Shown here: positions 7,952 through 10,998 of the stretch, piece after piece
Position numbering within the stretch: position 1 is the stretch's first letter
Layout of the letters: the number at the start of each line of letters is the position of its first letter
DNA from: Candidatus Heimdallarchaeota archaeon
GTDB lineage: Archaea; Asgardarchaeota; Heimdallarchaeia; JABLTI01
Reading direction: 5' to 3'
Length of the DNA: 13,624 nt
Assembly: GCA_030614005.1 (NCBI GenBank)
Contig: JAUWKS010000079.1
Location: 1 to 13,624, forward strand
Notes under the pieces: model-generated
What the model saw: only the letters and a program-made list of their open reading frames with translations
The model's database searches: none
What the model was told of the DNA's origin: nothing
Translations under genes and position numbers: made by a program

Positions 7952-7983
7952 TCTCTAGTTTTCTACCACAGAAAAACTGGAGA
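7952..7983. terminator. Long hairpin at the convergent trpS / PHP junction (possible bidirectional terminator)
   Basis: TCTCTAGTTTTCT-ACCAC-AGAAAAACTGGAGA: about 13 bp stem with one bulged A and one G:T pair, overlapping the PHP stop codon. Confidence 0.45.
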
Positions 7984-8601
7984 ACATTTTCCTTTTTTGA
8001 TTTGTTCTATTAAATCCTGAATGGTCTTAATAGGTACAGAAAATCGTGTCACACACTTACCAACTTGTGTATGTATATGAGAATCACTTCCACCTACCAA
8101 GGGTAAATTTAATGTTGCAGCAGCTCCTTTAGCCAATTCATTAGAAAGTTGAGTTCTTGAACCATTTATTTCAATAGCATCAATTTCTAAATCATAAATA
8201 AGATCACCAACACCAAGATAATCAAATGGATGAGCTGAAATAGCGATGCCACCTTCTGAATGAATCATTTCAATCACCTTATGAGCATCTAAATAGGGAG
8301 TAGGGGGAGAAGAGATACCATAGGCTAAAATATCACCTTGAGCGGTTGAAATTTCTACTGATGGAACAAGAACACCAATCTGATATTTATCATAGAGTGC
8401 TTGAATGGTTTCCTCGGAATAGTTGTGAATGTAATTATGTTCTGTAACAGTAATTGCATTTACTTTACCCATCAGTTCATTTAATGTTTCATCAAGAGTA
8501 ATCCTAGCACATGAAGAGTAACTAGTGTGAATATGCATATCGACTAAAAAATCAGTTGAACGAGGTACCTTTGATGTTCTTTGCAAATTTTTCAGATTCA
8601 T
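7963..8601 (-). CDS. PHP-family metal-dependent phosphoesterase
   Basis: DMHIH (H23, H25), TEHN (H55), VE (E83), AHPF (H124), IEING, GGSDSH (D173, H175). Confidence 0.92.
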   Translation of the reverse strand: MNLKNLQRTSKVPRSTDFLVDMHIHTSYSSCARITLDETLNELMGKVNAITVTEHNYIHNYSEETIQALYDKYQIGVLVPSVEISTAQGDILAYGISSPPTPYLDAHKVIEMIHSEGGIAISAHPFDYLGVGDLIYDLEIDAIEINGSRTQLSNELAKGAAATLNLPLVGGSDSHIHTQVGKCVTRFSVPIKTIQDLIEQIKKGKCSPVFLW

Positions 8602-8640
8602 TTGAAACTCTAACCTAATGTTACAAGTACTTCGTTTTTT

Positions 8641-9108
8641 TTACAAAAAGATTATCCTATTTCCACCCAACTTCTTTGCTTTTTTCAATGCTTTGTGAGC
8701 TAATCTTTGTGCTTGACCTTTAAACAATCGTCTTGACCATTGATATGGACCAGTAGGTCGAATTGGTGTGTATGGTCCTCGAGATACTCCTATACTCAGC
8801 GATGCATCACAACCACAATTTTGACCCACATTGTTAATCTCAGTTATAATATATTCGAGGTCATTGATGATCTCTTCATGAGCAAGAGCACCTGTCAAAC
8901 GTAACATGCATTCTTCCGTGCCGTGTTTTTCATCTAAACCATAAATTACTTCTCCAAGGTGCTTTCGAACGAATTTTGTGATTAAAGAAGTAAGTGAACC
9001 TGTAATGTCATTTGGTTTGTAGGCAACCCAACCTTGATCCTCAGAGATCTTCTTGAAGTTGTCTAGGTCAATGAAAATTACCAATTCTTCAACAGTTTGG
9101 AAAGTCAA
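8641..9108 (-). CDS. Stand-alone GGDEF-like (nucleotide cyclase fold) protein with GTEEC signature
   Basis: IDLDNFKKI (cf. DIDxFKxIND), GTEEC in place of GGDEF, SLSIGVS, AHKALKKAKKLGGNRI (cf. ADxALYxAKxxGRNRV). TTG start with GAAGGTG SD at 9114-9120. Confidence 0.82.
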   Translation of the reverse strand: MTFQTVEELVIFIDLDNFKKISEDQGWVAYKPNDITGSLTSLITKFVRKHLGEVIYGLDEKHGTEECMLRLTGALAHEEIINDLEYIITEINNVGQNCGCDASLSIGVSRGPYTPIRPTGPYQWSRRLFKGQAQRLAHKALKKAKKLGGNRIIFL

Positions 9109-9246
9109 TTGTGCACCTTCGAGTTCTATTTTTAAACTTTCACAAAAAGAATGCCAAAATAGCTAATAAGTGTTTTGCGAGTTCTCGAATCTTGAAAATT
9201 ATTTTTTACTAAAAAAATGATGATTTTTGTTTTGAAATTCAACCGC

Positions 9247-9262
9247 TATCAATGAATTGATA
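9247..9262. promoter_or_regulatory. Palindromic candidate operator in the divergent intergenic region
   Basis: TATCAAT-GA-ATTGATA, perfect 7-2-7 inverted repeat 36 nt upstream of ATG 9299. Confidence 0.35.
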
Positions 9263-9298
9263 AAGAAGCCGTATTTTTACAGCGAGAGGGATAGAAAT

Positions 9299-9553
9299 AT
9301 GTCTAGCCAAAGTAATGAGAAAATGAAAGCATACATCCTAATCAATGCAAAATTGGGAAAGACAAATGAAGTTCTTGCAAAACTAAAGAAAATACCAGGA
9401 ATTATTACTGTAGCGGTTATTACTGGAGAATATGATATTATTGTACGTGTTGAAACAGAAGATATGAATGAAATGTATAACCGAACACAAGAAGTCCATC
9501 TCATTGATGGTATTATTGAGACAACAACGTCAATCATACAAAAGGAATTCTAG
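9299..9553 (+). CDS. Stand-alone Lrp/AsnC ligand-binding (RAM) domain protein, no HTH
   Basis: KAYILINAKLGKTNEVLAKLKKIPGI..V..ITGEYDIIVRVE...EVHLIDGIIETTTSI is the typical AsnC-family C-terminal domain. ATG 9299 follows GAGAGGGA; the listed TTG 9257 extension is probably not translated. Confidence 0.9.
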   Translation: MSSQSNEKMKAYILINAKLGKTNEVLAKLKKIPGIITVAVITGEYDIIVRVETEDMNEMYNRTQEVHLIDGIIETTTSIIQKEF

Positions 9554-9591: not shown

Positions 9592-10998
9592 TTGGCAGAC
9601 AGAACAACAAGACCATTCGGTAAAATTAGCAGAAAATATACCTTCATAATTTTAGCTGTTTTGTCAGGGATAATAGGAGCTATTTGGGTAGCTATTGATA
9701 CTTTTACAGGTTCTGCTATTGTACTCTCAAGTGATGGAACGACAAATGAGTACGTATTTGCCATTCAATCAATGTTAATTGGTATTGTAGTAAGTTTACT
9801 TTTCGCTTTAGTTTTGTGGATTCCCATTAGCAAAAAACCATGGGAAGAATTTTTTCATAAACTGAAATCAATAAAAGGGCAAACTACGAGTAGTACACAA
9901 ACAACACAAAAAGTAATTCAAATACAACAAACAATTACACCAACAGCAAAACGTAGATTTTCATATTTAGGGCAATATATCGACCCACAGTATCAGGGAA
10001 TTAAAATACCAACGAAAAAAATGTTTCTTTGGTTAAGCCTTTCAGGACTTTTTTCCGGAGTGAATACTTTTGTTTATTTCATTCTCATAAAAGATATGGA
10101 TTTAGCTGTCTTTCTTCCTGCAGCTCAATTCGTTGTTGTTTATCTTTTAATAGGTGATTTAGTAATAGATAAGACAAAGCCTTGTGCTATTGAGATACAA
10201 TCGATAATTATGATTGTTTTAGGTGTCATTCTTGCTGCGATTGACTTTACTAGTGGTGCCTTTGAATGGCAAAGTCTCCTCTTAGTATTTCTAGTGTTAA
10301 ATGTAAGTGCAGCAATCTACGTTATTTTTCAAAAGAAAGTTATAGAAACTAAAGATGCAAAAGGTCGTACATTGGATTCAACTAATACTAGGTTGTGGAC
10401 TTTATTATTTATGACATTCATCACGGTAGTTCTCTCATTACCTTTTATGAAACAAGCTGATTGGATCGTCTTTAGGTCCACTTTCGGATCGGCACTATTT
10501 CCAATTTCATTGGCAATGATTTTAGTGTATATTGCTAGAATTCTCTACGTTCGAGCTCTTTCTATGGGAAAAATGGCTATAGTTAACTCCCTTTCATCTG
10601 TTTCAGTTATTGTTGGGATACCAATAGCAATAATTGGAAACTTCATTTGGCCCGATTATTTTCTATTACCAACAGGTGAATATGCCTGGGCAGTTTGGTT
10701 ACTTAGAGGAATTGGAGTCATACTTGTATTTACGGGTATAGTTGGATTATCTATGAGTGAGGTGAAGATAATCGTTCTAGCAAAAGTAAAAGGAGGAATG
10801 GAATGGGATGGAGAAAAAATAAAAAGTATTTCAGGTGTAGAAAAAGTTGCTGCAATAACAGGAAAATATGATTTATTGATTGTTCTTCGCTTGAGAACAA
10901 TTGGTCGAGGATACCAACCAATAGTTGAGCAATTAGAAAAACTTCCATTCATTGCAGATATTAAATCTAATACTCTGCTCAAAGAATGGAATGCATAA
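9592..10998 (+). CDS. EamA/DMT-family transporter fused to a C-terminal Lrp/AsnC ligand-binding (RAM) domain
   Basis: About 10 TM helices in two EamA-like halves (e.g. EIQSIIMIVLGVILAAI and GIGVILVFTGIVGLS as last helices). Residues 390-466 contain IKSISGVEKVAAITGKYDLLIVL. TTG start preceded by TGGTGA. Confidence 0.8.
   Translation: MADRTTRPFGKISRKYTFIILAVLSGIIGAIWVAIDTFTGSAIVLSSDGTTNEYVFAIQSMLIGIVVSLLFALVLWIPISKKPWEEFFHKLKSIKGQTTSSTQTTQKVIQIQQTITPTAKRRFSYLGQYIDPQYQGIKIPTKKMFLWLSLSGLFSGVNTFVYFILIKDMDLAVFLPAAQFVVVYLLIGDLVIDKTKPCAIEIQSIIMIVLGVILAAIDFTSGAFEWQSLLLVFLVLNVSAAIYVIFQKKVIETKDAKGRTLDSTNTRLWTLLFMTFITVVLSLPFMKQADWIVFRSTFGSALFPISLAMILVYIARILYVRALSMGKMAIVNSLSSVSVIVGIPIAIIGNFIWPDYFLLPTGEYAWAVWLLRGIGVILVFTGIVGLSMSEVKIIVLAKVKGGMEWDGEKIKSISGVEKVAAITGKYDLLIVLRLRTIGRGYQPIVEQLEKLPFIADIKSNTLLKEWNA

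What the first reader, a model, noticed from the sequence alone, without database searches (positions are those of the whole stretch)
7963..9108. GGDEF-like cyclase plus PHP phosphoesterase: candidate archaeal nucleotide second-messenger write/erase pair
Seen: the two genes are co-oriented and 39 nt apart, with no T-tract on the coding strand between them, so co-transcription is plausible. The 155-aa protein keeps both metal-binding acidic positions of diguanylate cyclases (D14 in IDLDNFK; E65 in GTEEC) and the Lys of AK..G. The guanine-reading Asn (PleD N335 equivalent) is Ser22, the Arg of GRN is Gly, and there is no sensor domain or RxxD site. The PHP protein retains its metal ligands. Established: GGDEF domains share the palm fold with Cas10 and adenylyl cyclases; c-di-GMP signalling is not established in archaea; PHP proteins hydrolyse varied phosphoesters, including nucleotide substrates. 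Inference: a metal-competent cyclase or nucleotidyltransferase with non-guanine or relaxed specificity, paired with a degrading enzyme. No cyclic-dinucleotide phosphodiesterase activity is established for PHP proteins, so this is a hypothesis.
Basis: partly seen in the sequence, partly recalled or inferred. Interest (0 to 1): 0.72.

Follow-up and report, generated by a model that had tools for sequence, protein, structure and literature searches.

The report
Archaeal GGDEF-like enzyme with PHP partner
This Asgard archaeon carries a small, sensor-less relative of the bacterial enzymes that make cyclic-di-GMP, apparently co-transcribed with a metal-dependent phosphoesterase; the pairing recurs in distant archaea, so the two probably work on the same nucleotide, but nothing yet shows that this is a signalling molecule.

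Summary
Two co-oriented minus-strand genes lie 39 nt apart: a 155-aa GGDEF-like protein (8641-9108) and a 212-aa PHP phosphoesterase (7963-8601).

The 155-aa protein belongs to an archaea-only family of stand-alone palm enzymes with a GTEE motif. I found it in at least 117 species. It is very probably the "MK0296/APE1864" family noted in 2005 and 2010 and never characterised. This scan has already met the family on other DNA.

The catalytic acids and the phosphate-binding lysine are conserved family-wide. The guanine-reading residues are not.

The pair test gives a mixed answer:
- **For a link:** a PHP gene sits next to the family gene in about five independent contexts, including a different PHP subfamily in reversed order and a Toprim fusion.
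- **Against a dedicated pair:** most family members have no PHP neighbour. Loki genomes keep the PHP gene in the same slot without the GGDEF-like gene. A second recurrent partner is tgtA, a tRNA-modification gene.

So a functional link is likely, and a dedicated second-messenger write/erase pair remains unproven. I see no sensor and no receptor. An RNA- or tRNA-directed role is a serious rival.

The parts
8641..9108 (-). 155-aa stand-alone GGDEF-clade palm protein ('GTEE family'). Motifs: D14-L-D16-N-F, Y30-x-P32-N33-x-x-T36, G57-x5-G63-T64-E65-E66, A144-K145-K-x-G-G-N150. TTG start.
   Evidence: ORF. (homologues). (conservation). (AF2 model pLDDT 86; GGDEF Z 13.2). (profile against DosC, E 9e-4). 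(12 of 29 members hit Pfam GGDEF, best 4.5e-5).
7963..8601 (-). 212-aa PHP-family metal-dependent phosphoesterase (PHP plus PHP_C), TM0559/EndoQ/RNase AM-like. Metal ligands D21, H23, H25, H55, E83, H124, D173, H175.
   Evidence: PHP_C 59.9 bits against cut-off 21.3. (invariant ligands). (pLDDT 93.6; 2anu Z 20.2, 5zb8 EndoQ Z 17.7, 9etk RNase AM Z 15.4).
8602..8640 (-). 39-nt intergenic spacer. A-rich on the coding strand, no T-run, with AGGT at 8613-8616, 12-15 nt before the PHP ATG (possible ribosome-binding site).
   Evidence: sequence read directly. Co-transcription is inferred, not shown.
8645..8649 (-). T5 run on the coding strand inside the last two sense codons (TTT TTG) of the 155-aa gene. 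Possible weak archaeal terminator, so read-through into PHP may be partial.
   Evidence: sequence. Its function is inferred from general knowledge that archaeal terminators are oligo-T tracts.
9127..9136 (-). TATA-like TTTAAAAATA preceded by purine-rich GAAAG, about 24 nt upstream of the TTG start. Candidate promoter of a leaderless bicistronic transcript.
   Evidence: sequence. Inferred only; no RNA data are available.

Best explanation
The 155-aa gene encodes a catalytically competent, sensor-less member of an old archaea-only branch of the GGDEF clade. Its signature is DLDxF, YxPNxxT, G-x5-GTEE and AKKxGGN. It is very probably the MK0296/APE1864 family.

Proposed mechanism (inferred):
- D14/D16 and E65/E66 hold two divalent metals, and K145 holds the triphosphate of an NTP.
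- A ribose hydroxyl attacks the alpha-phosphate, forming a phosphodiester bond and releasing PPi.
- By analogy with every characterised enzyme of this clade (diguanylate cyclases, Cas10, mCpol), the acceptor is most likely a second NTP. The product would then be a small linear or cyclic di- or oligonucleotide.
- That product is not c-di-GMP, because the guanine-reading pair N335/D344 is replaced by S22/N33.

The downstream PHP enzyme belongs to the nucleotide and nucleic-acid branch of PHP proteins. It most likely hydrolyses that product or its linear intermediate, much as a nanoRNase would.

The coupling is real but facultative, because PHP also has a job of its own. The module looks constitutive and vertically inherited. 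It does not look like a sensor-driven switch or a defence cassette.
For: **Fold and family.**
- AF2 model pLDDT 86. Best structural matches are the DgcB GGDEF domain (Z 13.2), mCpol OptS (Z 12.8) and class III cyclases (Z 12.7). Foldseek top hits are GGDEF domains.
- The family profile hits DosC GGDEF over its full length, E 9e-4, with catalytic positions aligned.
- 12 of 29 members hit Pfam GGDEF and 10 of 29 hit GGDEF_GdpP. None hits mCpol or GCH_III.
- Invariant across 29 divergent members: D16, N33, T36, G57, G63, T64, E65, K145. Nearly invariant: D14, E66.

**Link to PHP.**
- A PHP gene lies next to the family gene in the window's own Asgard family (11 of 11 genomes). It also does in three other Asgard families that share no other window gene.
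- The same holds in a Methanomethylicota MAG (4-nt overlap), and in Theionarchaea and a Thermococci MAG, where a different HisJ-like PHP subfamily lies upstream (3-nt gap or overlap).
- A Toprim fusion of the family is also followed by a PHP gene.
- On the family tree the PHP-linked members fall in at least four separate supported clades.

**PHP fold.** The nearest structures are TM0559, PsfC, EndoQ and RNase AM.

**Housekeeping character.**
- The gene is single-copy.
- Its amino-acid identity to the relative in L005 is 61%, comparable with neighbouring housekeeping genes there (55-78%).
- The family tree roughly follows taxonomy.
- There are no PADLOC hits.
Against: - No biochemistry exists for any family member.
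- The scores lie below the curated GGDEF cut-offs: Pfam 12.9 against 23.8 bits, TIGR00254 19.3 against 37.4.
- A stand-alone GGDEF domain has no obvious way to dimerise, and cyclic-dinucleotide synthesis needs a dimer.
- Most family loci have no PHP neighbour: 101 of 117.
- PHP persists without the family gene in the same Loki slot. A possible decayed relic of the gene lies in one such genome. PHP is therefore not a dedicated eraser.
- tgtA is translationally coupled to the family gene in three lineages, one family member is fused to Toprim, and the family is mildly basic, median pI 8.8. These fit an RNA substrate as well as, or better than, a free-nucleotide product.
- Anantharaman et al. 2010 (PMC2904730) judged the family unlikely to be signalling proteins.
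Confidence: 0.35

Rival explanations
1. The pair is a nucleotide second-messenger system: the GGDEF-like protein writes a regulated (cyclic) nucleotide signal, and the PHP protein is its dedicated phosphodiesterase.
For: - This shares all the catalytic-competence and pair-conservation evidence above.
- In one metagenomic relative (P0041) a histidine-kinase gene overlaps the start of the family gene by 4 nt, with further HATPase and PAS genes nearby.
- The window's own genome has no canonical GGDEF gene, so no known system is being duplicated.
Against: - There is no sensor domain. The family is overwhelmingly stand-alone: 36 of 37 representatives are under 200 aa, and no longer forms were found (weak evidence).
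- No receptor or effector is conserved next to the pair.
- PHP is present in 147 of 399 Asgard genomes against 30 of 399 for the family. It remains intact where the family gene is missing.
- Most family members lack a neighbouring PHP gene.
- The histidine-kinase link was seen only once.
Confidence: 0.2
2. RNA/tRNA-directed nucleotidyltransferase. The palm enzyme adds nucleotides to an RNA or tRNA end (Thg1-like or tailing/repair). The PHP protein acts as the end-processing nuclease or phosphatase. The module works in tRNA maturation or repair alongside TgtA.
For: - tgtA (TIGR00432, 547-569 bits against cut-off 350) overlaps the start of the family gene in Jordarchaeia, Asgardarchaeum and Methanomethylicota. 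In the last case the operon is tgtA, family gene, PHP.
- A Toprim domain (a nuclease/primase-type fold) is fused to the family domain and followed by a PHP gene.
- The closest functionally known PHP structures are a DNA endonuclease and a 5'-3' exoribonuclease.
- Neighbours elsewhere are information-processing genes: trpS here, TRAM/RsmB/LysRS in Nezhaarchaeales, L35Ae in Loki, TBP in Desulfurococcales.
- Median family pI is 8.8.
- Anantharaman et al. 2010 raised RNA-directed activity for some GGDEF relatives.
Against: - No characterised GGDEF, Cas10 or mCpol enzyme uses an RNA acceptor.
- A 150-aa protein has no fingers, thumb or other RNA-binding module.
- Thg1 structures were not among the top 50 fold matches.
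- There is no complementary distribution with Thg1. Thg1 occurs in 16 of 399 Asgard genomes and co-occurs with the family in two.
- The window's genome has no close TgtA orthologue; the best match is 30% identity.
Confidence: 0.25
3. NTP-hydrolysing or ring-opening metabolic enzyme. It would resemble GTP cyclohydrolase III, or be an ATPase like the degenerate GGDEF domain of GdpP. The PHP protein would act as a phosphatase on the product.
For: - The fold matches GCH III (2qv6, Z 11.1).
- 10 of 29 members hit Pfam GGDEF_GdpP. That domain is reported to have ATPase activity (title of Rao et al. 2010, cited in PMC8646023).
- The genome has no GCH_III gene.
- In Theionarchaea the partner is a HisJ-like PHP phosphatase.
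- The tgtA link could reflect GTP- or guanine-derived metabolism.
Against: - No member hits Pfam GCH_III.
- GCH III has two domains and about 250 aa with a GGDN motif, unlike this protein.
- The family is patchy: 30 of 399 Asgard genomes.
- The conserved DxD plus EE dyad and Lys are the transferase set.
Confidence: 0.1
4. No functional link. The adjacency would be inherited gene order, with the two proteins working independently.
For: - Within the window's own Asgard family a whole block of about 12 kb is syntenic, so adjacency there proves nothing.
- The PHP tree follows taxonomy.
- Each gene occurs without the other.
Against: - The adjacency survives where every other neighbour differs.
- It recurs with a non-orthologous PHP subfamily in reversed order and with the Toprim fusion.
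- Overlaps or gaps of 3-4 nt in several lineages suggest translational coupling.
Confidence: 0.1

Closest known systems
Archaeal GGDEF relatives typified by MK0296 (Methanopyrus kandleri) and APE1864 (Aeropyrum pernix): Galperin 2005 (PMC1183210); Anantharaman, Iyer and Aravind 2010 (PMC2904730)
   Same: Archaea-only, small and stand-alone, with the three acidic palm residues kept and no signalling domain. The 2010 authors predicted them active but 'unlikely to be signaling proteins'. An Aeropyrum sp. MAG carries a member of the present family.
   Different: I could not fetch the MK0296 or APE1864 sequences, so identity of the families is likely but not directly tested. The passages I read in those papers mention no PHP or tgtA partner.
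Bacterial diguanylate cyclases (GGDEF, PF00990/TIGR00254; DosC 4zve, PleD, DgcB 6ttr)
   Same: The palm fold is shared (Z 13.2, rmsd 2.9, 131 residues aligned). So are the DxD metal site, the acidic dyad in the beta2-beta3 hairpin, and the C-terminal A-x-x-A-L-x-x-A-K-x-x-G-x-N motif with the phosphate-binding Lys.
   Different: - The signature is G-x5-GTEE in place of GGDEF.
- The guanine readers are replaced (S22, N33).
- The Arg of GRNR is Gly.
- There is no RxxD inhibitory site.
- There is no sensor or dimerisation domain.
- Scores fall below the curated cut-offs.
mCpol / Panoptes OptS minimal CRISPR polymerase (PF18182; 9mnr)
   Same: It is a minimal stand-alone palm enzyme of similar size, and the closest match by rmsd (Z 12.8, rmsd 2.5, 109 of 119 residues). 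Protein language-model features place mCpol clusters nearby.
   Different: No member hits PF18182. There is no adjacent CARF or transmembrane effector and no PADLOC hit. The family is inherited vertically with housekeeping-type neighbours.
TM0559-type PHP phosphoesterases, EndoQ and RNase AM (TrpH/YciV)
   Same: The PHP partner shares the fold and the metal ligands (2anu Z 20.2; 5zb8 Z 17.7; 9etk Z 15.4).
   Different: The substrate of this subfamily is unknown. It lacks the extra domains of EndoQ. I found no PHP cyclic-dinucleotide phosphodiesterase in the paper library.

Membership tests
GGDEF diguanylate cyclase (PF00990 / TIGR00254) | Score above the curated family cut-off | tested here: not met
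   Pfam 12.9 bits against 23.8. TIGR00254 19.3 against 37.4. The best family member reaches only E 4.5e-5.
GGDEF diguanylate cyclase (PF00990 / TIGR00254) | Palm fold with the GGDEF-type C-terminal helix | tested here: met
   6ttr Z 13.2, 5euh Z 12.6, 6eib Z 12.3. Full-length profile alignment to DosC.
GGDEF diguanylate cyclase (PF00990 / TIGR00254) | Metal-binding acids (PleD D327, E370/E371 equivalents) and phosphate-binding Lys | tested here: met
   D14/D16, E65/E66 and K145 align to these positions and are conserved family-wide.
GGDEF diguanylate cyclase (PF00990 / TIGR00254) | GG[DE]EF signature and guanine-specifying Asn/Asp | tested here: not met
   The signature is G57-x5-G63-T64-E65-E66-C67. 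S22 and N33 stand at the base-reading positions, and G149 stands in place of the Arg of GRNR.
GGDEF diguanylate cyclase (PF00990 / TIGR00254) | c-di-GMP synthesis | not testable with these tools
   This needs an enzyme assay.
MK0296/APE1864-type archaeal GGDEF relatives | Archaeal, about 150 aa, stand-alone, three acidic palm residues kept, no signalling domain | tested here: met
   compared with the description in PMC2904730.
MK0296/APE1864-type archaeal GGDEF relatives | Direct sequence match to MK0296 or APE1864 | not tested
   These sequences could not be fetched here. An Aeropyrum sp. MAG member was found, but its cluster carries no APE name.
mCpol (PF18182) | Match to the family profile and an adjacent nucleotide-sensing effector | tested here: not met
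   0 of 29 members match at E <= 0.1. No CARF, SAVED or transmembrane effector lies beside the gene. No PADLOC hit. The fold similarity is tied with GGDEF.
GTP cyclohydrolase III (PF05165) | Match to the family profile; two-domain protein of about 250 aa | tested here: not met
   0 of 29 members match. The protein has 155 aa and one domain. Fold match Z 11.1 to the C-terminal domain of 2qv6 only.
PHP phosphoesterase (PF02811 / PF13263) | Profile match, PHP barrel fold and conserved metal ligands | tested here: met
   PHP_C 59.9 bits against 21.3. 2anu Z 20.2. Invariant D21, H23, H25, H55, E83, H124, D173, H175.
Dedicated cyclase/phosphodiesterase operon (write/erase pair) | The two genes co-occur and are lost together | tested here: not met
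   The pair recurs in about five contexts. However, 101 of 117 family loci lack a PHP neighbour. PHP also stays in the same Loki slot without the family gene.

The most novel reading that the evidence does not exclude
The GTEE family is a GGDEF-clade enzyme that acts on tRNA or RNA ends. It would add or repair nucleotides, working with TgtA and using the PHP protein as its end-processing nuclease or phosphatase. That would be a new class of RNA-modifying nucleotidyltransferase, conserved from hyperthermophilic Thermoproteota to Asgard archaea, and it would bear on the proposed RNA-repair ancestry of GGDEF and Cas10 enzymes.
Probability: 0.2. Interest if true: 0.85.

Novelty: new variant of a known kind. 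Interest (0 to 1): 0.55.

Why it matters
GGDEF enzymes and c-di-GMP signalling are treated as essentially bacterial (PMC5847659, PMC8646023). Here an intact GGDEF-clade enzyme is conserved in at least 117 archaeal species, including the closest archaeal relatives of eukaryotes. It has gone uncharacterised for about 20 years.

Finding its product would have one of two outcomes. It would either reveal a nucleotide signal or metabolite native to archaea, with a PHP enzyme as a new type of hydrolase for it. Or it would show that this enzyme clade can work on RNA. The recurrent partners PHP, tgtA and Toprim give concrete substrates to test.

Tried and rejected
- **RNA evidence:** no RNA holder was listed among the sequencing runs, so read laying was not used and co-transcription is untested.
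- **The search for related loci with the wide alignment:** it failed for lack of a conserved stretch. A degenerate motif pattern was used instead.
- **Thg1 replacement idea:** there is no complementary distribution.
- **Defence reading:** no PADLOC match for either protein or for three relatives.
- **GCH III:** no profile match for the family, and none in the genome.
- **Longer or fused forms:** none found by the word-based search (weak evidence). One Toprim fusion came from the exhaustive search.
- **PDB sequence search with the PHP protein:** the top hits were polyubiquitin repeats, which are artefacts.
- **Earlier findings by sequence:** none. A word search found four earlier notes on the same family.
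- **Relic of the lost gene in Loki slots:** only one marginal hit (E 0.025), a YSPSKIT-like frame with stop codons. This is suggestive, not proven.
- **Naming through cluster look-ups:** members are all annotated 'hypothetical protein'.
Full report
**Observation.**
The window holds two co-oriented minus-strand ORFs: 8641-9108 (155 aa, TTG start) and 7963-8601 (212 aa, ATG start). They are separated by 39 nt.

On the coding strand the spacer is A-rich and has no T-run. A T5 run lies at 8645-8649, inside the last two sense codons of the first gene, so termination there cannot be excluded. A TATA-like TTTAAAAATA at 9127-9136 lies about 24 nt upstream of the TTG, which fits a leaderless first cistron. 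An AGGT lies 12-15 nt before the PHP ATG. These are sequence readings only, and co-transcription is inferred. No RNA runs hold the stretch.

No RxxD motif occurs.

**What the 155-aa protein is.**
Curated profiles see it only weakly: Pfam GGDEF E 0.099, TIGR00254 E 7e-4, both below cut-off. Three further lines place it in the GGDEF clade.
- A profile of 23 homologues hits the DosC GGDEF domain over its full length (E 9e-4). D14 aligns with the first metal Asp and S22 with the guanine-reading Asn. TEEC aligns with GDEF after a six-residue insertion. A-L-K-K-A-K-K-x-G-G-N aligns with the A-L-Y-x-A-K-x-x-G-R-N motif.
- An AF2 model (pLDDT 86, pTM 0.83) matches GGDEF domains (6ttr Z 13.2), mCpol OptS (Z 12.8), class III cyclases (Z 12.7) and GTP cyclohydrolase III (Z 11.1). 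These values are effectively tied, so the fold alone does not choose among them.
- Sequence does choose. Of 29 divergent members, 12 hit Pfam GGDEF, 10 hit GGDEF_GdpP, 1 hits a Cas10 palm, and none hits mCpol or GCH_III.

Across those 29 members D16, N33, T36, G57, G63, T64, E65 and K145 are invariant. D14, L15, F18, Y30, P32 and E66 are nearly so. The two-metal transferase set and the phosphate-binding Lys are therefore under selection. The base-reading positions carry a family-specific Y-x-P-N-x-x-T motif.

**Distribution.**
An exhaustive search of 1.84 billion representatives gave only 37 clusters, all but one under 200 aa. Source names place them in Asgard lineages and in Nezhaarchaeales and Desulfurococcales.

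Of these, 117 encode a family member. Most are Desulfurococcales, Acidilobaceae, Pyrodictiaceae and Sulfolobales MAGs, including an Aeropyrum sp. MAG. Others are Nezhaarchaeales, Methanomethylicota, Culexmicrobium, Theionarchaea, a Thermococci MAG and several Asgard groups.

Within Asgard the family is patchy, in 30 of 399 genomes. It is single-copy in this genome, which has no canonical GGDEF gene. By contig matching, records of the window's own genus are titled 'Candidatus Heimdallarchaeota archaeon'.

**Literature.**
Galperin 2005 listed MK0296 and APE1864 as truncated GGDEF sequences. [quoted passage not shown] They predicted these to be active but unlikely to be signalling proteins.

The description fits this family, and an Aeropyrum sp. 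MAG member exists. I could not align those two sequences directly. Four earlier notes of this scan describe the same family on other DNA, one of them with a PHP partner. I used them as leads and re-tested the claims here.

**The PHP protein.**
- It matches PHP_C above cut-off.
- Its ligands D21, H23, H25, H55, E83, H124, D173 and H175 are invariant in 28 homologues.
- A confident model (pLDDT 93.6) is closest to TM0559 (Z 20.2), PsfC, EndoQ (Z 17.7) and RNase AM (Z 15.4). This is the nucleotide and nucleic-acid branch of the superfamily.
- I found no paper describing a PHP cyclic-dinucleotide phosphodiesterase.

**Testing the pair.**
Within the window's own Asgard family, all 11 genomes that carry the gene (the window's own included) have the pair. 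A block of about 12 kb is syntenic there, however, so this proves little.

The informative cases are elsewhere.
- In three other Asgard families (Loki-type and one of the window's class) the two genes are the only window genes retained, and they are still neighbours. Both are at 31-40% identity to the window's copies.
- A Methanomethylicota MAG has tgtA, the family gene and PHP in a tight operon.
- Two Theionarchaea and a Thermococci MAG have a different, HisJ-like PHP subfamily immediately upstream of the family gene, with a 3-nt gap or an overlap.
- The one fused family member, Toprim plus palm, is followed by an overlapping PHP gene.
- On the family tree the PHP-linked members fall in at least four separate supported clades.

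Chance adjacency of this kind is very unlikely, so a functional link is probable.

**Against a dedicated pair.**
- Only 16 of 117 species-level loci have a PHP gene in the fetched stretch. The large Desulfurococcales clade has none.
- PHP homologues occur in 147 of 399 Asgard genomes, against 30 for the family.
- In Loki genomes the same slot (a 700-aa gene, then PHP, then L35Ae) exists both with and without the family gene, and PHP is intact in both forms. One empty slot holds a possible decayed relic.
- Elsewhere PHP orthologues sit in glycosyltransferase/phosphodiesterase operons or behind a Pol-beta-type nucleotidyltransferase.
- The PHP tree follows taxonomy.

PHP therefore has a role of its own.

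**Other partners.**
- tgtA, the tRNA-guanine(15) transglycosylase (TIGR00432, 547-569 bits), overlaps the start of the family gene in Jordarchaeia, Asgardarchaeum and Methanomethylicota.
- One relative is overlapped by a histidine-kinase gene.
- Other neighbours are information-processing genes: trpS here, TRAM/RsmB/LysRS in Nezhaarchaeales, L35Ae in Loki and TBP in Desulfurococcales.
- The window's own genome has no close TgtA orthologue, no Thg1 and no GCH III.
- Thg1 shows no complementary distribution in Asgard.

**Mechanism.**
What is shown: the fold, the conserved catalytic set, the recurrent but facultative PHP link, and the tgtA link.

What is inferred: two-metal nucleotidyl transfer from an NTP.

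I commit to NTP-NTP condensation into a small linear or cyclic oligonucleotide that PHP hydrolyses (0.35). This is the only chemistry known for the clade. A nanoRNase-like PHP would also explain why PHP survives without its partner. The narrower claim of a regulated second messenger gets 0.2. An RNA/tRNA-directed transferase gets 0.25, a hydrolytic metabolic enzyme 0.1, and no functional link 0.1.

**Verdict.**
The gene is a new member of a published but uncharacterised family. Relative to known cyclase/phosphodiesterase systems it is a new variant. I found no description of the PHP and tgtA associations in the papers I could search. The limits are the absence of biochemistry, RNA data and a complex prediction.

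Noticed in passing
L126:2835-5472 (Methanomethylicota MAG): A tight three-gene operon: tgtA (539 aa, TIGR00432 569 bits), the GTEE-family gene, then PHP, with overlapping stops and starts. It unites the two recurrent partners of the family.
   Followed up: partly
L087:4782-6237: A 292-aa fusion of a Toprim domain with the GTEE palm domain, overlapped at its 3' end by a PHP gene and preceded by a PF1765-like (DUF167) gene.
   Followed up: partly
L088:3883-5462: A histidine-kinase gene (HisKA/HATPase_c, 373 aa) overlaps the start of a family member by 4 nt, with a second HATPase and a PAS gene nearby. This is the only signalling-type context seen.
   Followed up: no
L080:3780-3899 (Loki-type genome G160): Just upstream of an intact PHP gene, in the slot where relatives carry the family gene, a frame reads ...YSPSKIT... 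with stop codons. It may be a decayed relic of the family gene (tblastn E 0.025).
   Followed up: partly
L045:5818-6528 and L076:3269-3988: In two Asgard genomes the PHP orthologue lies directly behind a Pol-beta-type nucleotidyltransferase (NTP_transf_2) gene. PHP may therefore pair with nucleotidyltransferases of two unrelated folds.
   Followed up: no
window 9257-9553 (+) and 9592-10998 (+): A 98-aa AsnC/Lrp ligand-binding-domain-only protein with no HTH is transcribed divergently from the GGDEF-like gene. It is followed by a 468-aa multi-pass membrane protein that ends in the same domain (E 1.9e-5). Both are conserved only within the window's own Asgard family.
   Followed up: no
window 2-1363 (+): A TnpB/IS605 OrfB-type gene (Cas12f1-like TNB and OrfB_IS605 domains) runs off the contig start.
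   Followed up: no
G000 whole genome: No close orthologue of canonical TgtA was found in this 90%-complete assembly. The best matches are a 375-aa TGT-like ORF at 30% identity and a 644-aa ORF.
   Followed up: partly
L078:1854-4612; also L073, L074, L075 and L069: In several other Asgard families (Jordarchaeia among them) the PHP orthologue is the last gene of an operon with a type I phosphodiesterase/nucleotide pyrophosphatase and, in at least the Jordarchaeial locus L078, a family-2 glycosyltransferase.
   Followed up: no
L116 (DATKZI010000024.1): This record is titled 'Candidatus Bathyarchaeia archaeon'. The public label is probably wrong.
   Followed up: no
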